From: a phage
Sequence record: PX418922.1
Length of the DNA stretch: 64,000 nt
Reading direction: 5' to 3' (one strand)
Position numbers and translations under genes: made by a program. The notes under the pieces were generated by a model that saw nothing but the letters and a program-made list of their open reading frames with translations, did no database searches and was not told the origin of the DNA. Shown piece by piece: positions 5,686 through 51,699 of this stretch; position 1 is the stretch's first letter, and every line of letters begins with the position of its first letter.

Positions 5686-5911
5686 TATTTTAACTTTTTT
5701 CATTTTTAGAACAAAGGTGTCACTTTGTAGCACAGAAATAAGGCTCCTACAGCACCGTAGAGAGCCTGTTATTTTGTCCTATACAAACCCTTGTCTTTTT
5801 CAGTTTGCATCACTAGGATTCGATCTAAGTAGGTTCCTGAAGGTCTACCAATAAGATTAAAGGTTATCTCAAATTACCACTACCTGTTATCTCAAAAATT
5901 CCTCAAATTAT

Positions 5912-6112
5912 TTAAACTTTTTAAGAATTTACAAAAGTGAAAGTTGAAAACCAAAATTTAAAGTTTAGGAAAATTATCTTAAAATGTCAGATACAAAACA
6001 AAACTCAAAAGTCAAGGAAAATTTTAAAAATTTTGCGCGCCCACAGTATTTAAAGTTTTTTTGCTTTTACAAAAATGAAAGTACAAAAGCAAAATTTAAA
6101 GTTTACAAAAAT
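5912..6112. repeat. tandem imperfect direct repeats (~46-bp core, ~136-bp period) in AT-rich non-coding tract
   Basis: TACAAAAGTGAAAGTTGAAAACCAAAATTTAAAGTTTAGGAAAATT (5930-5975) vs TACAAAAATGAAAGTACAAAAGCAAAATTTAAAGTTTACAAAAATT (6066-6111); TTTAAAGTTT recurs. Confidence 0.6.
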
Positions 6113-6119
6113 TTATGCA

Positions 6120-6240
6120 GATGGGAATGAGAAGAGTTCTCATGTGGAAATGCAAATGATAATGATTCGCATTTAGGTTTATAAATGAGATTGATTCTTA
6201 TTTAATAAAGTAAATGATAATCATTCTCATTTAGAGAATG
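6120..6240. promoter_or_regulatory. cluster of palindromic operator-like sites (half-site TTCTCAT/ATGAGAA), Fur-box-like
   Basis: ATGAGAAGAGTTCTCAT (6127-6143); AATGATAATGATTCGCAT (6155-6172); TAAATGATAATCATTCTCAT (6211-6230) followed by GAGAATG. Confidence 0.45.
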
Positions 6241-6459
6241 ACGCGCAGGGGCGGTGTTTGTCTCGCGCTCCCGTGTCCCCTCGCCATGTACTAAGAATAA
6301 CAGATCCAGCCAGGAAAGCAAGCGATTATTTTATCTTTACATTTCTTTACAAATATATAGCGCCCAGCCTACCGGCGATCAACCTTCCAACCAGTGCCCC
6401 TGGTATGTTAGCCCCGCCTTTACGCCGTGGGGTGGCGCTTCCTCTTCTGTATGTAAAAC

Positions 6460-6488
6460 AGTATAAGCCCTATCCCTGGGCTTGTCAA
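6460..6488 (-). promoter_or_regulatory. sigma70-like promoter on minus strand (TTGACA-N17-TATACT)
   Basis: On minus strand TTGACA (plus 6483-6488), 17-nt spacer, TATACT (plus 6460-6465); drives GC-rich transcript toward ~6250. Confidence 0.35.
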
Positions 6489-6490
6489 GA

Positions 6491-11495: not shown

Positions 11496-11642
11496 ATGAA
11501 TACATCTAATCGCGCAGAAAAAATTCAATCTTCCAAGATCCGCAAGGCCTGGAATGAGGAAGTGATCCGCAAAGGCGACAAGCGCAATAAAACAAAGCGC
11601 GGGAAGAGTGACAAATATAATTGGATGGATTTAGAGGATTAA
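11496..11642 (+). CDS. small basic protein (48 aa)
   Basis: RBS AAGAGGAAACAAA-ATG; Lys/Arg-rich; followed by terminator. Confidence 0.45.
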   Translation: MNTSNRAEKIQSSKIRKAWNEEVIRKGDKRNKTKRGKSDKYNWMDLED

Positions 11643-11650
11643 CATAACAA

Positions 11651-11676
11651 GGGCGCACCAAGCGCCCTTTCTTTTT
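11651..11676 (+). terminator. rho-independent terminator
   Basis: GGGCGCACCAAGCGCCC hairpin followed by TTTCTTTTT. Confidence 0.65.
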
Positions 11677-11697
11677 ACATGTAGAGGATAAACAAAA

Positions 11698-13978: not shown

Positions 13979-14040
13979 TTGACAACAATTATAAATCGGG
14001 TAGAATGTATTTCGTAGGGCGGGGCAATGGTGCAACGCCT
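13979..14040 (+). promoter_or_regulatory. early promoter unit 20 (degenerate hairpin)
   Basis: TTGACA-N16-TAGAAT; GTATTTCGTAGGG; weaker stem GGCG...CGCC 14018-14040. Confidence 0.5.
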
Positions 14041-14058
14041 ACTAATGAGGGTAAAATC

Positions 14059-14163
14059 ATGTTAGAGAAAATTTTCACGGTTGTAGTAGTGGGCCTGGTG
14101 TTATCGGTTGGAGTGGTTGCAACTATGGCTAACATGATCCTATCTTCCCACGGTATTGGATAA
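14059..14163 (+). CDS. small membrane peptide (34 aa)
   Basis: RBS GAGGGTAAAATC-ATG; hydrophobic FTVVVVGLVLSVGVVATMANMIL. Confidence 0.4.
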   Translation: MLEKIFTVVVVGLVLSVGVVATMANMILSSHGIG

Positions 14164-14173
14164 GGTGAATCAA

Positions 14174-14389
14174 ATGATCACGAATAAGACAGGTAAAACA
14201 GAATTTTTACGCGCCTTGCAGATCGGCAAGCCTGAGATCTGGCATTGCACTAAATCCGCGCATAATGAAATGAAAGATTTTACCGCTACTTTACAACGTG
14301 TTAAAATATCTATCACACAGAAAAAAGCCTTGTTAGTAGTAGAAAACGAGATCCCGCAAACTATTATTATTGTCGAGCGTACAGCATGA
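14174..14389 (+). CDS. hypothetical protein (71 aa)
   Basis: RBS AAGGTG before ATG 14174; alternative TTG start at 14156. Confidence 0.5.
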   Translation: MITNKTGKTEFLRALQIGKPEIWHCTKSAHNEMKDFTATLQRVKISITQKKALLVVENEIPQTIIIVERTA

Positions 14390-14772
14390 AAACAGAAATC
14401 ATTATTGAAATCATCAACGGTTATAAAGAAGCCTTTATTTTTGCTGAATCAGCAAGGGATCATGAAGGTAATTTTATTGATAACTTAGACGATTATGATT
14501 TTTCTCCTAGCGTGGATCAACGGATCGCCCAGGATGTAACAGCCTTTATTAATGCTAATCTTGCCGCTATCTCTGAGGCAATGAGCGACGGCGCAACAGC
14601 CAACCAGATCGGGAATGATTTACATTTTACCCGTAACGGTCACGGCGTAGGCTTTTGGGATCGCCCTGAAATATACACCACTAACACGGCGAACCGCCTA
14701 ACCAATGCAGCTAAGTTTATGCCGAACGTGTCGGCTTACATTGGTGAAGATAATTTGATTTATATTGAATAA
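14386..14772 (+). CDS. hypothetical protein (128 aa)
   Basis: ATGA overlap with upstream ORF. Confidence 0.55.
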   Translation: MKTEIIIEIINGYKEAFIFAESARDHEGNFIDNLDDYDFSPSVDQRIAQDVTAFINANLAAISEAMSDGATANQIGNDLHFTRNGHGVGFWDRPEIYTTNTANRLTNAAKFMPNVSAYIGEDNLIYIE

Positions 14773-14778
14773 AAAGTA

Positions 14779-14837
14779 TTGACACCGATCCCCAATATGG
14801 TACTATTTACCACGTAGGCGGGAAATGGTTTCCCGCC
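14779..14837 (+). promoter_or_regulatory. early promoter unit 21 with 5' hairpin
   Basis: TTGACA-N16-TACTAT; TTACCACGTAGG; hairpin GGCGGGAAA-TGG-TTTCCCGCC 14817-14837. Confidence 0.6.
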
Positions 14838-14860
14838 AGGTAATCAAAAAGGTAAATACT

Positions 14861-15250
14861 ATGCGCAACCTGGTTTCTGTTTCTAACGTTGAAAAATTTC
14901 AATCTTTACAGGGTATCGTTAACAACGTAGCGCCTTTTTTAGTCAACGGCTTGATTGCAAAGATGAAAAATAAACATCATGCGGCATGGTCTGCTTACTG
15001 CTTTGATAATGATGAAAAAGCGGCTGAAATGATGTTAAATATGCTGTTAGACAGTGTAGAATCATCTTTACCGGAAAACATCGCAGAAGAGATCACCTAT
15101 CGTTATAATATGGCGATCACTTACCAGGAGGTTGCGCAATTTAATATGATGGACGATGACGAACAACAGGATCAGGAAATGTTTTGGGAGTATGCTGATC
15201 GTCAATCGGCTTTTGATGAAAAATTAGCGATGTATTATAACGAATATTAA
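14861..15250 (+). CDS. hypothetical early protein (129 aa)
   Basis: ATG 14861 preceded by AAAAAGGTAAATACT. Confidence 0.55.
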   Translation: MRNLVSVSNVEKFQSLQGIVNNVAPFLVNGLIAKMKNKHHAAWSAYCFDNDEKAAEMMLNMLLDSVESSLPENIAEEITYRYNMAITYQEVAQFNMMDDDEQQDQEMFWEYADRQSAFDEKLAMYYNEY

Positions 15251-15266
15251 TACACGGTAAAAGAAA

Positions 15267-15290
15267 GGGGCGCACTAAGCGCCCTTTTTT
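15267..15290 (+). terminator. rho-independent terminator
   Basis: GGGGCGCACTAAGCGCCC hairpin followed by TTTTTT. Confidence 0.7.
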
Positions 15291-15635
15291 GTATTCTTTT
15301 TTCACGATGGAAACAACACGTAAAGAATAGGCGTAAAGGTGGCGTAAAACCATCTAAAACCGACTGTAACCGCTTAAACAAGGTAGGAATGATTAATCAC
15401 CTTGCCAGGATGAAAAAGCCGTTATAAAGCTATCTAGAGCGTTTAAAGCACATAGGAAATAATTTGCTTTTTATCTTGCCTTTTACCCTGCTTTTGATTA
15501 TTATTATGGAACGGGCGGCACCTGGAGACAGGGGAAGATAATCACCGGAAGATCCCGCTATATATTGATAGCTAATACCTATTAAACAACAAAACATCAA
15601 AGGAATAAACTATCAAATCTTTACAATTCTACCTA

Positions 15636-15670
15636 TTGACACCGGATCGCCCTTATACTAAGATGTATCA
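15636..15670 (+). promoter_or_regulatory. early promoter unit 22 (no GC hairpin)
   Basis: TTGACA-N17-TAAGAT; GTATCACGTAGGG conserved start region but downstream hairpin absent. Confidence 0.5.
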
Positions 15671-15710
15671 CGTAGGGCAAATGATTTTAAACGGTAAACG
15701 AGGAATCACC

Positions 15711-16094
15711 ATGAGCAATATCATCAACCTGGCAGCGACTGTAAACGGTAAAGACTTTAACGGCGCTGTAGACCGTGATCCTATGTGGTACTTGTCAGTG
15801 TTTAAAGGCGATCTGGTTGAAGTTAGAACAACCGAAGGGTATAGCGATGATTATAAATGCGAGATTCATTTACATAATTGGTACACGGGTAAAACTTATG
15901 CGCTGAATCACGCGTTTATCGGAAAAATCGAATATCGTGAGATGATCGACGAAGAAACGGGGCAAGATTTTAGCGAAAACGTTTATATTCGTTCCGAGAC
16001 ATTAGCCGAACGTTTGATCGAGAAAATGAAAGCAAAAAATAAAATTAATTTATCTCATTGGATTGATATAACAAACGATCCAGCTTATCAGTAA
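15711..16094 (+). CDS. hypothetical early protein (127 aa)
   Basis: RBS CGAGGAATCACC-ATG. Confidence 0.55.
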   Translation: MSNIINLAATVNGKDFNGAVDRDPMWYLSVFKGDLVEVRTTEGYSDDYKCEIHLHNWYTGKTYALNHAFIGKIEYREMIDEETGQDFSENVYIRSETLAERLIEKMKAKNKINLSHWIDITNDPAYQ

Positions 16095-16110
16095 ATAACA
16101 TTTCATACCA

Positions 16111-16136
16111 GGGCGCACAAAGCGCCCTTTCTTTTT
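16111..16136 (+). terminator. rho-independent terminator
   Basis: GGGCGCACAAAGCGCCC hairpin followed by TTTCTTTTT. Confidence 0.7.
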
Positions 16137-16139
16137 GCC

Positions 16140-17150
16140 CGAACAATGTTGATAGATTCCGCCTATGGAAAACCGACACAGAACAAAACTGAATAAATAG
16201 CGGTATCAAGCTAATCAACCATTAAATGAATAACCATACCTCCCAGGGTAACAGGCTGTTAGAGAGCCATTTAAAGCGGTTAAAATCGATCAACAACCAA
16301 CAACAAACCATCAAAAACACCCTTTTACCTCCTTTCTAGTGCAATGATAACCATTATCATCTATCCATGTTTATCTATACAATATAAGTGCATAATTATA
16401 ATGTTGATAATAGTTCGCAACAACTAACCAACAAACAACATAAAACAATAAGCAAACTAATCATAATCAAAGGAATAATAGCAAGATGATTGATAACAAC
16501 AAACAATCAAACCATGATGAATACTAAGCAAGATAACGATAACACGACAAAACAACCAACTAACGAACAATAACAAACGAAACCATTAAAATAATAACTA
16601 TTGCCATAATAGTGACTAAATGAAATCATTACAAAACGAATCATTCACAGAGTCATCATTAGCACGCTATGCCGGACACATAGCGAGCTAATAATAAGCC
16701 AACTACACCCCAACAATCATAACCATCGGTGATGGTTATTTCTTGTTACTGCGTAGCTTGCAATAATTGCAAGCGTAATGACGCTTACACTTATTGCGCT
16801 GGCTTATTATTAGCATTATATGTAATTACCAAGATCATAACATTAGCGCAATAACAATAATCATTGTGGTAATTACGTAAGGAAACAATTAGCATGGCAA
16901 TAATTATGGGGCAATGGGAGGATGATTATCATCATTCCGATACATTGCACACTATGCACATAATAGAATAAAAAGCAATAATTTTGGGGGCGAAATGTTA
17001 CCGCCACAGGCGGGAATGTTGAGCACTAAGAAAAGAGATAAACCTTAATCATGGGGGCGTAAATATCCGCAGGATTGCCAACGGCGATCCGGTAGGATGT
17101 TGAGCATCTTCTCTTAAACGTAAATAAAATCAGAAAATTCTTGATTTATT
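16140..17150. other. A+C-rich, G-poor non-coding tract with palindromes (candidate origin, regulatory region or ncRNA)
   Basis: About 1 kb without credible ORF; runs of CAACAA/AACAAA; palindromes CTTGCAATAATTGCAAG (~16757), GATGATTATCATC (~16920), AGCGT-AATG-ACGCT (~16774). Confidence 0.45.
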
Positions 17151-17174
17151 TTAGTTTTTATGTTAATAAACGTT

Positions 17175-17379
17175 TAAATAATAATCATTCTCATATAAAT
17201 AATAGTCTGCTTGTCATGAGCGGGATTAGTTGACAATGTTCCGTCATATGATGAAGTTGCCAACCTATTGATAAATAAGTGTTTGTGTGATTTATAATCA
17301 AGTGGCCCACCTTGTCGCTACGTTGGCATAAGCCTTGCATAAGTCATTGAATACGAATGATAATTATTCTCATTCGCAT
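17175..17379. promoter_or_regulatory. second cluster of Fur-box-like / TTCTCAT palindromic sites
   Basis: TAAATAATAATCATTCTCAT (17175-17194) is 19/20 identical to 6211-6230; AATGATAATTATTCTCATTCGCAT (17356-17379) matches 6155-6172. Confidence 0.45.
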
Positions 17380-17493
17380 GATATTTGGGAATTGTCGCTG
17401 CGTGGACCTGACGGCCCGAAAATTCGCGTTAAGCACTTCTTACGTATGCGCCATGATTTTTGCCATATGATATTGATTCTATTAGATATTCTT

Positions 17494-17678
17494 GCCATGA
17501 TTGCCATGAAACAGGGTGTCCCGAAATAATCTTTCCCCGTAGATATTTTGGGTTACTTTTTATACAAGAGTGGGGTGTCAAAAATAATCGGTATATATGG
17601 GATAATTGATAGGAATCCCCTATGATAATTCGATTGTAATTCCCTGAGATTGATCGTATGATGTTGGTGATTGATGAT
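17494..17678. repeat. direct repeats ATGATTGCCATGAAA (two copies ~170 bp apart) and GGTGTC..AAATAATC
   Basis: Copies at ~17494-17508 and ~17664-17678; GGTGTCCCGAAATAATC (~17515) vs GGTGTCAAAAATAATC (~17573). Confidence 0.35.
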
Positions 17679-17715
17679 TGCCATGAAAGATGGCTAACGA
17701 TGAGAGGAGATTATC

Positions 17716-18090
17716 ATGCAAGAGAGTAAAAATATTCCGTTGAGCAGTGCAGCATTGCTTCGCTTCTATAAAGCATGGATTGCCAACTATCCTGCAATGA
17801 ATCGCACAACGAGTGGCTTATGTGGTTGTCTGGTGGATTATGTAGATGATTTTGTTGGTGAGACAACTAGAGAAGAAGATAGAAGATGGCGGGATAGTTT
17901 GTTGGACCGTTTGAAATATGAAATGAGGAGACAATTTACATGTGCAGGGCTGGACTATAATCTTCCGTTCAATGCAGATTGCATGGATTACCTTTCAGAG
18001 TGTATAAACTTGGCGTGTCATACCAACACGTTACGTCTTCAGTGGGTGAAAGACAGAATTGAAGATGCAAATAATGTTTGCATTGAATAA
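17716..18090 (+). CDS. GLCxCL-family small protein (124 aa), paralogue set member 1
   Basis: RBS GAGGAG; motifs FYKAW..YP, GLCGCL, C-terminal LRLQWVKDR shared with 22323, 28117, 29422 ORFs. Confidence 0.6.
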   Translation: MQESKNIPLSSAALLRFYKAWIANYPAMNRTTSGLCGCLVDYVDDFVGETTREEDRRWRDSLLDRLKYEMRRQFTCAGLDYNLPFNADCMDYLSECINLACHTNTLRLQWVKDRIEDANNVCIE

Positions 18091-18149
18091 AAATGTCTGT
18101 ATAGTGGTTTGCATACCGCGCATAACAGATAGCCAATGAGGAGATTGAA

Positions 18150-18359
18150 ATGTCAAATATGAAAACTGTATCCTTGTATTTAGCTAACACTGATCGTGTG
18201 CACACCCTTGCTAACGCAAGTCGTGTACTCGTGCAGTTCCGAAACTTTAAGCCGTCCGTTGTGACAGGCAGTGAAACGTGTGTTATCGATTTCATTAACG
18301 AATACTTCCGAGGGAATCCGGTTGGTCGTTACTTTATTAAGGGTTTGAAGGATGCATAG
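18150..18359 (+). CDS. hypothetical protein (69 aa)
   Basis: RBS GAGGAG before ATG. Confidence 0.55.
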   Translation: MSNMKTVSLYLANTDRVHTLANASRVLVQFRNFKPSVVTGSETCVIDFINEYFRGNPVGRYFIKGLKDA

Positions 18360-18360
18360 T

Positions 18361-18582
18361 ATGAAACGCATGAAAATTCGTATTGAGAATGATGGTGGTT
18401 ATAAAGGATTGGCACATGCAAAATTTCCACTTGTGTTGGAAGCTACGGTGGAATACAGTGGGCTTGCTCATGTGCGATTCTCGAAGATGATGGAAGTGCA
18501 GGAATGGTTTTGGGACGAGATAGATGCACGAGAAGGAGAAGATTATGTTTTCTTTCCTCACGAATATAACATTGTTTATTAA
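18361..18582 (+). CDS. hypothetical protein (73 aa), paralogue of 23033-23254
   Basis: Shared block EWFWDE..EGEDYVFF with 23033 ORF; alternative ATG at 18352. Confidence 0.5.
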   Translation: MKRMKIRIENDGGYKGLAHAKFPLVLEATVEYSGLAHVRFSKMMEVQEWFWDEIDAREGEDYVFFPHEYNIVY

Positions 18583-18594
18583 AGGTTGTGTGCA

Positions 18595-18834
18595 ATGATC
18601 ACACCACAACAGAATGAAGCAGCAATGGATCTTCTTGATAGTTTGTATTTCGATAATTGGTACTCTGAATGTGAATGGATGAATATGCAAACTCTGAAAG
18701 AGAAGACAAAAGCGTTGATTACAGTAGATCAATTTCTTGCAGAGACGGAAAGAATGAATTATGATATGGCATCTCGCGCACGACGCGTTTCCATTTTCAA
18801 TAAAATGTTAGCATTATGGGGAGGTAGAAAATGA
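18595..18834 (+). CDS. hypothetical protein (79 aa)
   Basis: ATG 18595 after AAAGG; in-frame GTG at 18586 possible. Confidence 0.5.
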   Translation: MITPQQNEAAMDLLDSLYFDNWYSECEWMNMQTLKEKTKALITVDQFLAETERMNYDMASRARRVSIFNKMLALWGGRK

Positions 18835-19292
18835 GACAACCATCTATACTGGAAGCGCATGTGCAATGTGTTGTAGATTATGTCAAAGAACACTCAAGTT
18901 TGTTGAATGTAACCTGTGCAGTGCAAAATGATGTAGGTATTGTCTGTGTGCAACATATCTTATCTGAAACTCGTTATGAAGTATTTCGTGCCACGTTGTT
19001 TGGATGTGATCGAGTGCATGTAAACTTCCTGGACTCCAATTATCGTTATGCTTTAGAAAATATTGATGATTATCTTCCTTGCTCTCCGACAGGATATGTA
19101 ATGGTAACAGCAAACGAAGTAACACCGAGCAACAGTGAACAGGAAGCTTTGTTACGGAAGAAAATACGCCAACTGCAAGTGTTGAATGAACTGAAAGAAG
19201 AGATTGAAAAAGAACTGAAAGAAGATTTTGGTATGCTTCCAAAAGACGCTTTGAAATGGTATGATGAGTTAGGAGGAGAGAACAATGTTTAA
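18831..19292 (+). CDS. hypothetical protein (153 aa)
   Basis: RBS GGAGG; ATGA overlap with upstream ORF. Confidence 0.55.
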   Translation: MRQPSILEAHVQCVVDYVKEHSSLLNVTCAVQNDVGIVCVQHILSETRYEVFRATLFGCDRVHVNFLDSNYRYALENIDDYLPCSPTGYVMVTANEVTPSNSEQEALLRKKIRQLQVLNELKEEIEKELKEDFGMLPKDALKWYDELGGENNV

Positions 19293-19743
19293 AGAAGGTC
19301 ATGTCTACCGTTTCCAGGATGAGGATTATATGCGATTATATTCTACCTTTGATAACAGTATTGCTGCTATCATTGGAGAGAATTTTTTCGAGGTGTTGAG
19401 CACTGATGCAAATGGTAATATCTTGTCAATGGTTGTAATAGGTATGAGAGACGGTATTATCACTGCTGGTGATGGGGATCGTTACATAATCAATTCTGCT
19501 CATATAGATTATTTTGTTGACGGTGGTGTTCGTGGTGGTCGTGGAAAACCCCAAGAAGAACCTGTTGATACAACAAAAGAAGAGTGGTATGTTGTAATGA
19601 CTGATGACACCTGTATTTCTGGATTTGAAAGTTATGAAGAAGCTTTGAAAGAAGCAGCAGAGCATAAAATGGCTAATCCTACAGAAGAGGTTGAAGTTTA
19701 TAAACGTTTGGTTGTTGCTACCATCGGCGTATCTTTTGTTTAA
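19285..19743 (+). CDS. hypothetical protein (152 aa)
   Basis: RBS AGGAGGAG; overlaps upstream stop. Confidence 0.55.
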   Translation: MFKEGHVYRFQDEDYMRLYSTFDNSIAAIIGENFFEVLSTDANGNILSMVVIGMRDGIITAGDGDRYIINSAHIDYFVDGGVRGGRGKPQEEPVDTTKEEWYVVMTDDTCISGFESYEEALKEAAEHKMANPTEEVEVYKRLVVATIGVSFV

Positions 19744-19755
19744 AAGGGGAATGTT

Positions 19756-20193
19756 ATGTTTAAAGTTAATGCTGTTTACTGTTTCAAAAGTAAAGCTGCC
19801 TGTGAAGCTTTCTCTATGATCTCTGATGAAAATTTCAAAATGGCAGCTTTGATTGAAGGGTCTTGTTTCCGCGTCGAGGATGTTAGTGAATCAGGGTCTG
19901 TTTGCTCATTGACTTTATTGGACAGCGGGGATATTATTGAAGCTGGACAGTATCCGTTCAGGAGTTGGGAGATATTGTTAGCTCGCGGAGAGCGTAACTT
20001 TTTTATGTGCGTGTCTGCGGGGGAAGTTGTGAAAGAAACTAAGGATGTTTCTGTTTACAATTCTGAATTTATAAGTTATAGTGAGTATCAACATCTGGAA
20101 GGCATTGTTGGTCACTTGTTATCTCTGATTGACATTGAATGTGACCTGCCTGAATCATTGAAAGAAGAGTTGAAAGCATTAGATCTGCTGTAA
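19756..20193 (+). CDS. hypothetical protein (145 aa)
   Basis: RBS AAAGGGG before ATG. Confidence 0.55.
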   Translation: MFKVNAVYCFKSKAACEAFSMISDENFKMAALIEGSCFRVEDVSESGSVCSLTLLDSGDIIEAGQYPFRSWEILLARGERNFFMCVSAGEVVKETKDVSVYNSEFISYSEYQHLEGIVGHLLSLIDIECDLPESLKEELKALDLL

Positions 20194-50840: not shown

Positions 50841-51167
50841 TTACCAGACATGTTGAGAAATAATAGTTTCCGTTTTAATGTTATATTTTTCAAGTAGCTT
50901 TGCATAGGCTTCTTTTGCATTCTCATTCAATTGCTCAAGATCTACAGCTATGCTTCCCTCTCCGCCTTCTAAATCAAGGCCATATATGCAATAAGACTCA
51001 TCCGCATCGTAGAAAGGAGAGATGCGGCTTAAGTCCAGACCTTCTTGTAAGAACCAGTTAAAATCTCCATCAAATTCTTCTTCAATTCTAGGATCTTCTC
51101 CTACAGCCTCTTCCCATTTATTAAAAGGTGCACCCTGTAACATACGCCATGCAATATCAACTCCCAC
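50841..51167 (-). CDS. hypothetical acidic protein (108 aa)
   Basis: GTG start; minus-strand ORF. Confidence 0.45.
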   Translation of the reverse strand: MGVDIAWRMLQGAPFNKWEEAVGEDPRIEEEFDGDFNWFLQEGLDLSRISPFYDADESYCIYGLDLEGGEGSIAVDLEQLNENAKEAYAKLLEKYNIKTETIISQHVW

Positions 51168-51303
51168 TATCTTCCTCCTCTTCTTTTTCTTCTGTATGAA
51201 CGAAACCTAAGCCGTTACAATTCCAACAAGGAATAAATTGTTCCATACTAACAATAAAATTCCCAGTGCCGCCGCAGATAGGACAAATACTTACATCATC
51301 CAT
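51166..51303 (-). CDS. zinc-ribbon small protein (45 aa)
   Basis: ATG 51303 with RBS GGAG; CPICGGTG..CWNCNG; acidic tail; below ORF-track cutoff. Confidence 0.4.
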
Positions 51304-51305
51304 TA

Positions 51306-51512
51306 TTAAAGCTCCTTAATCTTTTCTAACATCTGTTCTAACTCATTCTCTGTTAACAGAATTTCTGTGATACCATCATAAGTTTCTACCATCAGAGTAA
51401 AACATTTTTCCCCATCTGAACACACAAAAGCGCCACCTTCATCTTCTGTTAAGTCAGAATTAATATCTACATCACCAAAATCAATCATCTTTTTCTCCTT
51501 TGATAATTTCAA
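51306..51512 (-). CDS. hypothetical acidic protein (68 aa)
   Basis: Minus-strand ORF. Confidence 0.45.
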   Translation of the reverse strand: MKLSKEKKMIDFGDVDINSDLTEDEGGAFVCSDGEKCFTLMVETYDGITEILLTENELEQMLEKIKEL

Positions 51513-51699
51513 ACTTGGCTACACCATTAACTATAATGTGACCACAAGACATAACTCCTAGCCAAGGATCGCCGTTTTTCTTCAGGCGTTTACCGAATAC
51601 ATCACAAAAACCATTCTTCATTTCGGAGGCTTCATAAGAAGCCCCTTTATCAAAAACGTCTTTGAATGTGTCGATTATACCAACACATCTCAAAATCAT
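51481..51699 (-). CDS. hypothetical protein (72 aa)
   Basis: Minus-strand ORF abutting nrdB stop. Confidence 0.45.
   Translation of the reverse strand: MILRCVGIIDTFKDVFDKGASYEASEMKNGFCDVFGKRLKKNGDPWLGVMSCGHIIVNGVAKFEIIKGEKDD

What the first reader, a model, noticed from the sequence alone, without database searches (positions are those of the whole stretch)
16140..17150. 1-kb A+C-rich, G-poor non-coding tract with perfect palindromes
After the terminator at 16111-16136 about 1 kb has no credible ORF and strong strand bias on the plus strand (runs such as CAACAACCAACAACAAACC and AACAAACAATCAAACC). It also holds perfect palindromes (CTTGCAATAATTGCAAG, GATGATTATCATC) and stem-loops (AGCGT-AATG-ACGCT; CCGCC-ACA-GGCGG). 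Non-coding stretches this long are unusual in a phage this densely packed. It could be an origin or UP-element-rich control region, or a long unstructured A/C-rich RNA; the (AAN)n-like repeats resemble Hfq distal-face motifs, which is speculative.
Basis: partly seen in the sequence, partly recalled or inferred. Interest (0 to 1): 0.55.

Follow-up and report, generated by a model that had tools for sequence, protein, structure and literature searches.

The report
Non-coding control region beside phage genome end
The flagged stretch is the gene-free DNA just inside the right physical end of a phAPEC8-like coliphage genome, and it holds a previously undescribed, strongly conserved folded element of about 150 bases read from the opposite strand to the neighbouring genes.

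Summary
The window is a Phapecoctavirus (phAPEC8-like myovirus). The flagged tract lies in the largest ORF-free gap of the window (16095-17715). The palindromes are real. The strand bias is real only for 16260-16720, where the + strand is A-rich and G-poor; C is at the genome average.

Relatives show a 329-bp direct terminal repeat mapping to 17103-17431. The flagged tract is therefore the unique non-coding DNA next to the right genome end.

The same module order recurs in at least four lineages:
- terminator
- Fur-box-like operators
- a G-depleted tract of 230-410 nt
- a ~150-nt multi-helix element (16663-16816)
- variable modules ending in TGTTGAGC
- the repeat border

The element has strong covariation support: 98% of cells paired and 13 compensatory pairs. 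It folds better on the minus strand in all 20 copies, with G·U pairs only there. It has no Rfam match.

The best reading is a cis-acting terminal control region for end formation or packaging. It probably involves a leftward structured transcript with a C-poor tail. The mechanism is inferred, because no expression data exist. The Hfq-motif and small-peptide readings are rejected. An origin of replication is not excluded.

The parts
16110..16136 (+). Intrinsic terminator closing the upstream plus-strand genes. It is the left boundary of the conserved non-coding block.
   Evidence: Stem of 7 pairs (6 G-C) followed by a T run. It is conserved in all genera, while the gene before it is replaced by unrelated alleles.
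16140..16259 (.). Left conserved block, including the inverted repeat TGATAG-N7-CTATGG (16150-16168) and GAATAAATAGCGGTATC.
   Evidence: Conserved across genera at the nucleotide level, in all reading frames and on both strands, so it is not coding. Identity within the genus is 86-93%.
16343..16360 (.). Fur-box-like operator 1 (AATGATAACCATTATCAT). It matches the 7-1-7 motif TGATAATnATTATCA with one mismatch and the 19-mer consensus at 15/19.
   Evidence: It sits at the same position in Justusliebigvirus, the Klebsiella lineage and the metagenomic lineage.
16376..16394 (.). Inverted repeat TATGCA-N6/7-TGCATA, imperfect in this window (TATACA...TGCATA). It is flanked by Fur-like boxes in relatives.
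   Evidence: TTATGCA-N6-TGCATAA is conserved with a variable spacer in three genera.
16260..16654 (.). G-depleted, A-rich tract on the plus strand, which makes the minus strand C-depleted and U/G-rich. It is unstructured.
   Evidence: G is 8-10% here. The same position is G-poor (3-11% G) in all lineages although the sequences diverge and the length varies from 230 to 410 nt. Folding is no better than shuffles on either strand. Identity within the genus is 85-97%.
16663..16816 (-). Conserved multi-helix element. P1 is a hairpin at 16665-16685. P2 is a 15-bp closing helix, 16687-16701 with 16800-16814. An invariant junction CAACTACAC lies at 16700-16708. P3 is a hairpin at 16719-16739. A 19-nt palindrome hairpin lies at 16756-16774. 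A further helix lies around 16773-16799.
   Evidence: In the minus-strand consensus, 48 pairs form and 98.1% of cells are paired (slid controls 26-50%). Thirteen pairs show compensatory change (controls 1-4) and the covariation score is 0.237 (controls 0.068 or less). The minus strand is more stable in all 20 unique copies, and G·U pairs occur almost only there. Energy z-scores are -6.7 to -11.9. The covariance model finds a single copy in the window, scoring 176 bits on the minus strand and 45 on the plus strand. There is no Rfam match. It is the most conserved segment, at 91-99% identity.
16817..17102 (.). Hypervariable spacer built from G+C-rich hairpin modules. Two units, 16982-17025 and 17048-17106, each end in GGAATGTTGAGCA or GGATGTTGAGCA.
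   Evidence: Identity to relatives is 33-84%, with many indels. Other lineages carry one to three extra TGTTGAGC copies upstream of the border, mostly at ~67-81-bp spacing (24 bp in muut). The palindrome GATGATTATCATC (16921-16933) lies here and is not conserved.
17099..17106 (+). Left border motif of the terminal repeat: GTTG|AGCA.
   Evidence: The exact 329-bp repeat of Schickermooser starts here. The PhageTerm-defined 342-bp repeat of BME3 starts at the same motif. TGTTGAGC is invariant in all lineages.
17103..17431 (.). Direct terminal repeat (one copy in this circularly assembled window). It contains Fur-like boxes 2 (17177-17194) and 3 (17356-17373) and an invariant CTTGATTT (17140-17147).
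   Evidence: Repeat lengths predicted from the two border motifs are 330-353 bp where the copies nearest the repeat are taken (read off coordinates for 4 loci). Published values are 328 bp (PMC6563267) and 342 bp (PMC12210895). Several records start or end exactly here.
17425..17444 (+). Right border motif: CGCGTTA|AGCACTTCTTACG. It shares the core GTTRAGCAyyTTCT with the left border, in the same orientation.

Best explanation
SHOWN. The flagged tract is the unique, gene-free DNA immediately inboard of the right-hand copy of a 329-bp direct terminal repeat (window 17103-17431) of a Phapecoctavirus. In the replicating concatemer it is the left flank of the genome junction. It is a fixed series of modules conserved in at least four lineages of this phage subfamily:
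- a terminator
- Fur-box-like operators around a TATGCA...TGCATA inverted repeat
- a 230-410-nt tract depleted of G on the plus strand
- a ~150-nt four- to five-helix folded element
- a variable array of hairpin modules ending in TGTTGAGC
- the repeat border, GTTG|AGC

INFERRED. This is the cis-acting region that controls formation of the genome end and the start of packaging, as the unique sequences beside the T7/T3 terminal repeat do. The repeated TGTTGAGC modules and the two like-oriented border motifs would be the terminase recognition and cutting sites.

The folded element works as a single strand, and that strand is the minus strand. Its helices keep pairing through compensatory changes and through G·U pairs that exist only on that strand. 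I therefore think it is made as a leftward, non-coding transcript that starts in or near the repeat. The C-poor, unstructured tract would be its tail. C-depletion would let an untranslated RNA escape Rho, while the same tract read rightward is G-poor and would help stop read-through from the upstream operon before it reaches the junction.

[quoted passage not shown] The Fur-like boxes would tie this, and the early promoters in the repeat, to host Fur or to a phage protein of similar specificity.
For: Location:
- The exact 329-bp repeat at both ends of the Schickermooser record maps to 17103-17431. The published value is 328 bp.
- The PhageTerm repeat of BME3 (342 bp) has the same border motif.
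- Border motifs are conserved across lineages, and predicted repeats are 330-353 bp where the copies nearest the repeat are taken (read off coordinates for 4 loci).
- Several independent records begin or end at these borders.
- All Stephanstirmvirinae are reported to end in direct terminal repeats.

Selection:
- The block from the terminator to the element stays 85-99% identical where the upstream gene is replaced and the repeat interior falls to 64%.
- G-depletion is kept at the same place in all lineages although the sequence diverges.

Folded element:
- Searches give 98.1% of cells paired, 13 compensatory pairs, and no shuffle or slid control reaching the observed values.
- Strand: the minus-strand MFE is lower in 20 of 20 copies. 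All 11 hairpin mismatches on the plus strand are A·C or C·A, which are G·U on the minus strand. There are 60 G·U cells at 9 pair positions on the minus strand against 2 cells at 1 position on the plus strand.
- There is a single copy per window.

T7 analogy:
- T7 packaging specificity lies within 5% of the termini.
- T7 phagemids need an origin, a pac site and the terminal repeat.

Composition: minus-strand C/G is 0.48 and YC density is 5.4 per 100 nt, the lowest measured. Plus-strand C/G is 2.08.
Against: - There are no expression data. No transcriptome of this subfamily is in the searchable literature.
- No consistently placed sigma-70 promoter was found on the minus strand upstream of the element. 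The only recurrent hit overlaps Fur-like box 3, whose own sequence resembles a -10 hexamer. No minus-strand terminator was found.
- Small terminase subunits normally read double-stranded DNA, so a single-strand fold is not what a classical pac site needs.
- The distance from the element to the repeat border varies from 182 to 465 bp.
- Part of the minus-strand advantage could come from composition alone, because a G/U-rich strand offers more wobble pairs.
- G·T pairs are also tolerated in single-stranded DNA, so an RNA is not proven.
- Rightward Rho loading is weakly supported, since YC density is only at background.
- The two border motifs are in direct, not inverted, orientation. This fits double-strand cuts better than staggered nicks and leaves the duplication of the repeat unexplained.
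Confidence: 0.45

Rival explanations
1. A free-standing regulatory non-coding RNA gene with no role in end formation. A minus-strand transcript with a structured 5' domain and a U/G-rich tail would act in trans on host or phage targets, or as antisense to read-through from the upstream operon. Its place next to the repeat would be incidental, simply because early promoters cluster there.
For: - There is covariation with G·U pairs on one strand only.
- There is no ORF and no conserved peptide.
- There is no Rfam family.
- The C-poor tail suits a long untranslated RNA.
- The spacing to the repeat border is variable.
Against: - No conserved promoter or terminator was found.
- The tail sequence is not conserved between genera, so a base-pairing target is unlikely.
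- Strict synteny with the repeat border holds in every lineage examined.
Confidence: 0.2
2. A replication origin of the T7 secondary-origin type: a host-polymerase promoter (the Fur-box/TATGCA region or one in the repeat) followed by an A+T-rich, strand-asymmetric unwinding region. The folded element would be a single-strand initiation or primosome signal exposed on the minus strand as a fork or R-loop opens the duplex.
For: - The tract is the most A+T-rich and unstructured part of the gap.
- rV5-type phages carry a T7-like PolA and a gp4-like primase-helicase.
- T7 needs an origin next to its junction for plasmid packaging.
- The fold is very stable with DNA parameters on the minus strand (z -11.9).
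- TTATTAGC repeats occur, four in tandem in KP13-26.
Against: - There is no DnaA-box cluster and no iteron array conserved across lineages, and GATC is under-represented.
- rU:dA hybrids from a leftward transcript would be weak (established knowledge of hybrid stability).
- A second conserved non-coding region with repeats at 5686-6253 is an equally good origin candidate.
Confidence: 0.15
3. The tract would be transcribed rightward as an unstructured A/C-rich RNA that loads Rho (an insulator behind the intrinsic terminator) or binds Hfq, or it would be a UP-element-rich promoter region.
For: - Plus-strand C/G is 2.08 over about 390 nt, and the RNA is essentially unstructured.
- It lies directly behind a terminator, where a back-up stop would make sense.
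Against: - YC dinucleotide density is only at background, and C is not enriched.
- (AAN)n and (ARN)n runs are not above composition and are absent in other genera.
- In Justusliebigvirus the tract is as T-rich as it is A-rich.
- This reading does not explain the adjacent minus-strand fold.
Confidence: 0.08
4. Small hydrophobic peptides encoded on the minus strand (T-rich codons), including a 32-aa ORF at 16222-16320 with a perfect Shine-Dalgarno sequence, or decayed remnants of such genes.
For: - Minus-strand ORFs of 32-45 aa with hydrophobic products exist.
- AAAGGAGGT lies 6 nt before the GTG at 16320.
- Some annotators called 7-8 small genes here.
Against: - The 32-aa ORF is truncated or absent in close relatives and replaced by unrelated ORFs in other genera.
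- No translated similarity across genera is seen inside the tract. Where DNA is conserved, it is conserved in all frames on both strands.
Confidence: 0.04

Closest known systems
T7/T3 concatemer-junction region: the unique DNA left of the terminal repeat at the right genome end, with the pac signals, the phiOR promoter/secondary origin and the CJ pause site
   Same: Both are non-coding DNA directly beside a short direct terminal repeat at the right end, carrying inverted repeats and repeated short motifs. In T7 this region is needed in cis for packaging, and transcription into it is part of the mechanism. The rV5-type replication genes are also T7-like.
   Different: There is no sequence similarity. 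This phage is a 150-kb myovirus that, as far as is known, uses the host RNA polymerase. The region is far longer, about 1 kb. It contains a multi-helix element with strand-specific covariation and a 400-nt G-depleted tract, neither of which is described for T7. A cis requirement has not been tested here.
The unexplained 'non-coding' box on the rV5 genome map (Vequintavirus)
   Same: Both are large ORF-free blocks in a related group of large coliphage myoviruses, drawn but not explained by the authors.
   Different: I did not fetch the rV5 sequence, so homology or a shared layout is untested. No DNA similarity to Vequintavirus was found beyond the terminator block.
E. coli Fur boxes (19-bp GATAATGATAATCATTATC, or 7-1-7 TGATAATnATTATCA)
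   Same: The boxes at 16343, 17177 and 17356, and the cluster at 6155-6231, match at 14-16 of 19 positions and with 1-2 mismatches to the 7-1-7 motif. There are seven such sites against 0.8 expected. They are conserved in position across genera.
   Different: Binding by Fur is untested, and a phage-encoded dimeric protein could be the ligand. No clear promoter overlap was established. I did not find Fur-controlled sites of this kind described for lytic coliphage termini.
phi29 packaging RNA (pRNA)
   Same: Both are structured RNA-sized elements (~150-170 nt, multi-helix junction) encoded close to a genome end and oriented against the neighbouring genes.
   Different: The phi29 family packages protein-primed DNA without a small terminase. 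There is no sequence or Rfam similarity. Transcription, multimerisation and portal binding are all untested. The resemblance is positional only.
Rho-dependent terminator rut regions
   Same: Both have a long C>G, unstructured stretch in an untranslated region behind a gene.
   Different: C is not enriched and YC density is at background. In this genus the tract is A-rich rather than pyrimidine-rich.

Membership tests
Terminal (concatemer-junction) cis region of a direct-terminal-repeat phage | Lies directly beside a border of the direct terminal repeat | tested here: met
   The repeat maps to 17103-17431 through the exact 329-bp repeat of a 95-97% identical relative. The same border is found in a PhageTerm-typed genome of another genus.
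Terminal (concatemer-junction) cis region of a direct-terminal-repeat phage | Conserved sequence at the cutting sites | tested here: met
   TGTTGAGC(C/A) on the left and CGCGTTAAGCAC on the right are found in all lineages, with a shared core GTTRAGC.
Terminal (concatemer-junction) cis region of a direct-terminal-repeat phage | Termini of this very phage mapped on virion DNA | not testable with these tools
   No reads are available for this isolate. The border is transferred from relatives.
Terminal (concatemer-junction) cis region of a direct-terminal-repeat phage | Required in cis for packaging and bound by terminase | not testable with these tools
   This needs a plasmid transduction assay or deletion mutants.
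Structured non-coding RNA | Conserved secondary structure supported by compensatory changes | tested here: met
   There are 48 pairs, 98.1% of cells are paired, and 13 pairs show changes on both sides. No shuffle or slid control reaches these values.
Structured non-coding RNA | Strand-specific wobble (G·U) pairs | tested here: met
   There are 60 G·U cells at 9 positions on the minus strand and 2 cells at 1 position on the plus strand. All 11 plus-strand hairpin mismatches are A·C or C·A.
Structured non-coding RNA | Own promoter and terminator; transcript detected | tested here: inconclusive
   No consistently placed sigma-70 promoter was found, and no terminator was found. No transcriptome is available.
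Structured non-coding RNA | Member of a described Rfam family | tested here: not met
   cmscan at E up to 1 over 14000-20000 on both strands returned only one chance snoRNA hit elsewhere. No tRNA or tmRNA was found.
Fur box | Match to the 19-bp consensus and the 7-1-7 inverted repeat | tested here: met
   Matches are 14-16 of 19. There are 28 sites at 14/19 or better against 5.6 in shuffles, clustered in two non-coding regions. There are seven 7-1-7 matches against 0.79 expected.
Fur box | Overlaps a promoter and is bound by Fur-Fe | not testable with these tools
   Promoter overlap is only suggestive. Binding needs EMSA or ChIP.
Rho-dependent terminator (rut) | C>G, unstructured stretch of 80 nt or more | tested here: met
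   Plus-strand C/G is 2.08 over 391 nt, and the folding z-score is -0.75.
Rho-dependent terminator (rut) | Enrichment of C / YC dinucleotides | tested here: not met
   C is at most 2-3 points above the 19.2% average (20-22%), and there are 7.7 YC per 100 nt against 7.5 in flanking sense strands.
Hfq distal-face (ARN)n / (AAN)n site | Runs of four or more in-frame triplets beyond what composition gives, conserved in relatives | tested here: not met
   The longest runs are 4-5, with P = 0.34-0.50 against shuffles. They are absent in KP13-26 and L116.
Replication origin | Host initiator or architectural sites, or iterons, beside an A+T-rich unwinding region | tested here: inconclusive
   An A+T-rich tract is present. 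There is one near-DnaA box, one IHF core and few GATC. TTATTAGC repeats are tandem only in KP13-26.
Protein-coding gene(s) on the minus strand | Reading frame and product conserved in relatives | tested here: not met

The most novel reading that the evidence does not exclude
The ~150-nt minus-strand element is a new class of phage RNA that takes a direct part in maturing the genome end. It would be a packaging- or terminus-associated RNA in a terminase-type myovirus, made from the concatemer junction and acting there in cis. It might recruit terminase or prime duplication of the terminal repeat, under Fur (iron) control. This would be the first RNA cofactor of DNA packaging outside the phi29 family.
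Probability: 0.1. Interest if true: 0.85.

Novelty: new variant of a known kind. Interest (0 to 1): 0.55.

Why it matters
phAPEC8-like and phi92-like phages are among the most frequently isolated broad-host-range coliphages and are used in therapeutic cocktails. Yet this, the largest gene-free block in the stretch examined here, is left blank in almost every deposited annotation.

This work places it at the physical genome end and gives exact border motifs. That lets such genomes be oriented and compared consistently.

The conserved folded element and the Fur-box-like sites are concrete, mutable targets. They make three open questions directly testable:
- how short direct terminal repeats are recognised and duplicated in large myoviruses
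- whether transcription is coupled to packaging outside the T7 group
- whether a lytic phage reads the host's iron status through Fur

The element is also a candidate new RNA family.

Tried and rejected
1. Known RNA families. Rfam at E up to 1 on both strands, and ARAGORN, found nothing.

2. Minus-strand small hydrophobic proteins. Frames are not conserved. The 32-aa ORF with a perfect ribosome-binding site is truncated in close relatives.

3. Hfq (AAN)n motifs are not above composition.

4. Host-type origin signals. No DnaA-box cluster was found, there is one IHF core, and GATC is under-represented.

5. Tandem repeats or iterons in the tract. Only weak CAACAA-type families were found. The tetramer TAAC is mildly enriched in several lineages, but no shared longer motif emerged.

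6. A conserved sigma-70 promoter for a minus-strand transcript was not found. Plus-strand promoter hits in the gap are no more convincing.

7. Hairpin P3 followed by T's (16719-16745) as a plus-strand intrinsic terminator. The T run is not conserved in other lineages, so it is a structural hairpin.

8. Looking for the element outside this subfamily. Pattern scans of viral, metagenome and genome collections returned only Stephanstirmvirinae-like contigs plus chance matches.

9. A second copy in the window. None was found.

11. The second G-poor stretch of the window (about 51020-51620) lies among minus-strand ORFs and is ordinary coding skew.
Full report
**Identity and context**

The 1621-nt stretch 16095-17715 matches more than 100 phage records. 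The best matches are 95-98% identical Phapecoctavirus (phAPEC8-like, Stephanstirmvirinae) genomes of about 150 kb. In almost all of them nothing is annotated under the match. Carefully annotated relatives leave the same gap of about 1.5 kb between a terminator and the next gene. Two pipeline annotations fill it with 7-8 tiny hypothetical genes. The gap also exists in Justusliebigvirus (phi92-like; muut, inny, BME3) and in Klebsiella members of the subfamily, between homologous flanking genes.

**Checking the observation**

The following are all present at or next to the stated coordinates:
- the terminator (16110-16136)
- the quoted A/C runs
- the 19-nt palindrome GCTTGCAATAATTGCAAGC (16756-16774)
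- GATGATTATCATC (16921-16933)
- the two small stem-loops

The ORF-free gap is the largest in the window, 1621 nt against 568 nt for the next.

The strand bias is real but narrower than claimed. Over 16260-16720 the plus strand is 46% A and 10.4% G. C is 21.7%, close to the 19% genome average. From 16741 onward the composition is ordinary. The tract is therefore A-rich and G-poor over about 460 nt, not A+C-rich over 1 kb.

Palindromes are only modestly above shuffles: 3 against 0.78, with 17 of 300 shuffles reaching 3.

**The decisive context: a genome end**

Many deposited records start or stop inside this gap.
- The Schickermooser record carries an exact 329-bp repeat at its two ends. Its authors report a 328-bp terminal repeat (PMC6563267). 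This repeat maps to window 17103-17431.
- BME3, from another genus, was typed with PhageTerm as having 342-bp direct terminal repeats (PMC12210895). Its repeat begins at the same motif...TTGTTG|AGCC..., and ends at ...AAAATCGCGTT.
- The left motif TGTTGAGC(C/A) and the right motif CGCGTTAAGCAC occur in every lineage examined. The repeat lengths they predict are 330-353 bp where the border copies nearest the repeat are taken (four of these I read off the coordinates).
- A recent paper states that all Stephanstirmvirinae end in direct terminal repeats (PMC12695924).

The flagged interval is therefore the unique non-coding DNA that abuts the right-hand repeat copy. Its last 48 nt are already inside the repeat. 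The two borders share the core GTTRAGCAyyTTCT in the same orientation.

**Anatomy and conservation**

Alignments within the genus and across genera show a fixed order of modules.

Identity of each segment to eight relatives:

| Segment | Identity |
|---|---|
| Upstream gene 3' end | 31-100% (it is replaced by unrelated alleles) |
| Terminator plus left block | 86-93% |
| G-poor tract | 85-97% |
| Folded element | 91-99% |
| Variable modules | 33-84% |
| Terminal repeat | 64-99% |
| Leader after the repeat | 64-99.6% |

G-depletion at the same relative position holds in all lineages: 3-4% G in Justusliebigvirus and 3-5% in the Klebsiella phages. This is so although the sequences are barely alignable and the length varies from 230 to 410 nt.

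The spacer 16817-17102 is built from G+C-rich hairpin modules, each ending in (G)GAATGTTGAGCA. This window has two, at 16982-17025 and 17048-17106. Other lineages have one to three extra upstream copies, mostly at ~67-81-bp spacing.

**A conserved folded element**

Between 16663 and 16816 lie:
- a G+C-rich hairpin (P1)
- a 15-bp helix (P2) that closes a junction
- an invariant single-stranded CAACTACAC
- a 9-bp hairpin (P3)
- the 19-nt palindrome hairpin
- a further helix

I collected 20 distinct copies from GenBank phages, IMG/VR and metagenome contigs, including a fourth, uncultured lineage (L051, L085, L116, L118).

On the plus-strand alignment, 97.5% of cells pair and 12 pairs show compensatory changes. 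Slid controls give 23-46% and 2-5.

On the minus-strand alignment:
- The consensus gains helices and reaches 48 pairs.
- 98.1% of cells pair, against 26-50% in slid controls.
- 13 pairs are compensatory, against 1-4 in controls.
- The covariation score is 0.237, against 0.068 or less in controls.
- 0 of 500 shuffles reach the observed values.

Single-sequence folding gives z-scores of -6.7 (plus strand) and -7.6 (minus strand) with RNA parameters, and -9.3 and -11.9 with DNA parameters.

A covariance model finds one copy in the window, scoring 176 bits on the minus strand and 45 on the plus strand. Rfam has no match.

**Which strand folds**

- In all 20 copies the minus strand folds 11-24 kcal/mol better.
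- All 11 mismatches in P3 on the plus strand are A·C or C·A, which are G·U wobbles on the minus strand.
- The minus-strand consensus holds 60 G·U cells at 9 pair positions. The plus-strand consensus holds 2 cells at 1 position.
- In the helix next to the junction, two adjacent pairs are either A-U plus U·G or G·U plus C-G, depending on lineage. They are always paired on the minus strand and always carry one mismatch on the plus strand.

This pattern is expected for a single-stranded minus-strand molecule, RNA above all. It is not expected for a double-stranded protein site or a cruciform.

Two caveats apply. A G/U-rich strand gets some wobble pairs for free. Single-stranded DNA also tolerates G·T.

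**What the tract is not**

- *Not coding.* Translated similarity across genera appears only where the DNA is conserved, and then in all frames on both strands. Inside the tract there is none. A tempting 32-aa minus-strand ORF (16222-16320) with AAAGGAGGT in front is truncated or missing in close relatives.
- *Not an Hfq (AAN)n array* beyond what composition gives.
- *No host-type origin signature*.
- *No structure of its own.* The folding z-scores are 0.08 and -0.75.
- *Only a weak Rho loading site when read rightward.* C/G is 2.08 but YC density is at background. Read leftward it is the poorest Rho substrate measured, with C/G 0.48 and 5.4 YC per 100 nt.

**Fur-box-like operators**

The motif AATGATAAyCATTmTCAT occurs at 16343, 17177 and 17356, and three times at 6155-6231 in a second non-coding region. 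It matches the Fur 7-1-7 motif (seven sites against 0.79 expected) and the 19-bp Fur consensus at 14-16 of 19 positions. There are 28 sites at 14/19 or better against 5.6 in shuffles, and 15 of them lie in these two regions. The sites are kept at the same positions in other genera, and one is a perfect 7-1-7 match in Justusliebigvirus. Whether Fur or a phage protein binds them is unknown.

**Mechanism**

What is shown:
- the location at the genome end
- the modular conservation
- the fold and its strand

What is inferred rests on established knowledge of T7 and T3. There, the unique DNA beside the repeat carries the packaging signals and a promoter/origin. [quoted passage not shown]

By that analogy I take the region as the cis-acting control region for end formation and packaging initiation. 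The TGTTGAGC modules and border motifs would be the terminase sites. The folded element plus C-poor tract would be a leftward non-coding transcript, or its nascent RNA, acting at the junction.

The main weaknesses are the lack of any expression data and of a conserved minus-strand promoter.

The rivals are scored separately:
- a free-standing trans-acting RNA
- a transcription-primed origin with a single-strand initiation signal
- a plus-strand Rho/Hfq reading
- small peptides

**Comparison with what is known**

The closest system is the T7/T3 concatemer-junction region. The position and logic are the same. The sequence, size and components differ, and the cis requirement is untested here.

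The rV5 genome paper draws an unexplained 'non-coding' box (PMC3606486). I did not test whether it is the same thing.

I found no description of the folded element, the G-depleted tract or the Fur-like sites in the searchable literature.

I file the finding as a new variant of a known kind: the terminal control region of a direct-terminal-repeat phage, containing a candidate new structured RNA.

Noticed in passing
window 5686-6490 (Fur-like boxes at 6155-6172, 6185-6202, 6213-6230): This is the second-largest ORF-free region of the window. It carries A/T-rich repeats of the type AAATTTAAAGTTTA and a cluster of three Fur-box-like sites, one matching the 19-bp consensus at 16/19. It is conserved at 95-98% in relatives and is also present in Justusliebigvirus. 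One record annotates a repeat_region there. It is an equally good candidate for an origin or early control region.
   Followed up: partly
window 17432-17715: The leader between the repeat and the first left-end gene holds repeated motifs: ATGATTGCCATGAAA at 17497 and 17674, a 24-bp tandem repeat at 17601-17645, and two copies of GGGTGTC-N3/4-AAATAATC. This is probably an array of early promoters or operators. In phiWec188 and PsgM04F this leader is only 64-69% identical.
   Followed up: no
window 15636-16094 versus L001, L002, L009, L015, L016: The last gene before the terminator is mosaic. At least three unrelated alleles occupy this slot in close relatives, and similarity resumes at about the terminator stem (16111). 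The terminator therefore marks a recombination boundary.
   Followed up: partly
window 11641-11678: A near-copy of the 16110-16136 terminator stem-loop region occurs about 4.5 kb upstream (94% over 36 nt to the Schickermooser copy). The first ~100 nt of the gap (roughly 16111-16214, covering the terminator stem) are also about 75-79% identical in more distant phages (Av-05, 24-2-1, FBKp34).
   Followed up: no
window 16222-16320, minus strand: A 32-aa hydrophobic ORF (VFLMVCCWLLIDFNRFKWLSNSLLPWEVWLFI) is preceded by a perfect AAAGGAGGT. It is not conserved in relatives, but the purine block itself (GGAAAGGAGG-like) recurs in Justusliebigvirus.
   Followed up: yes
window 16982-17025 and 17048-17106: This isolate carries two copies of the GGGGGCG-hairpin-GGAATGTTGAGCA module, so the border motif GTTGAGCA occurs twice, 81 nt apart (17018 and 17099). 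Schickermooser has one copy and KP13-26 has three. A second cutting site could give a longer repeat in some molecules.
   Followed up: partly
L051, L085, L116, L118 (metagenome contigs, two of them from contigs of about 150 kb): These are an uncultured fourth lineage with the same module order (Fur-like box, G-poor tract, folded element, TGTTGAGC border, ~350-bp repeat) but strongly diverged sequence. They would be useful for a larger covariation analysis.
   Followed up: partly
window ~51020-51620: This is the only other stretch as G-poor on the plus strand as the flagged tract. It lies among short minus-strand ORFs (108, 68 and 72 aa), so it is probably ordinary coding-strand skew.
   Followed up: partly
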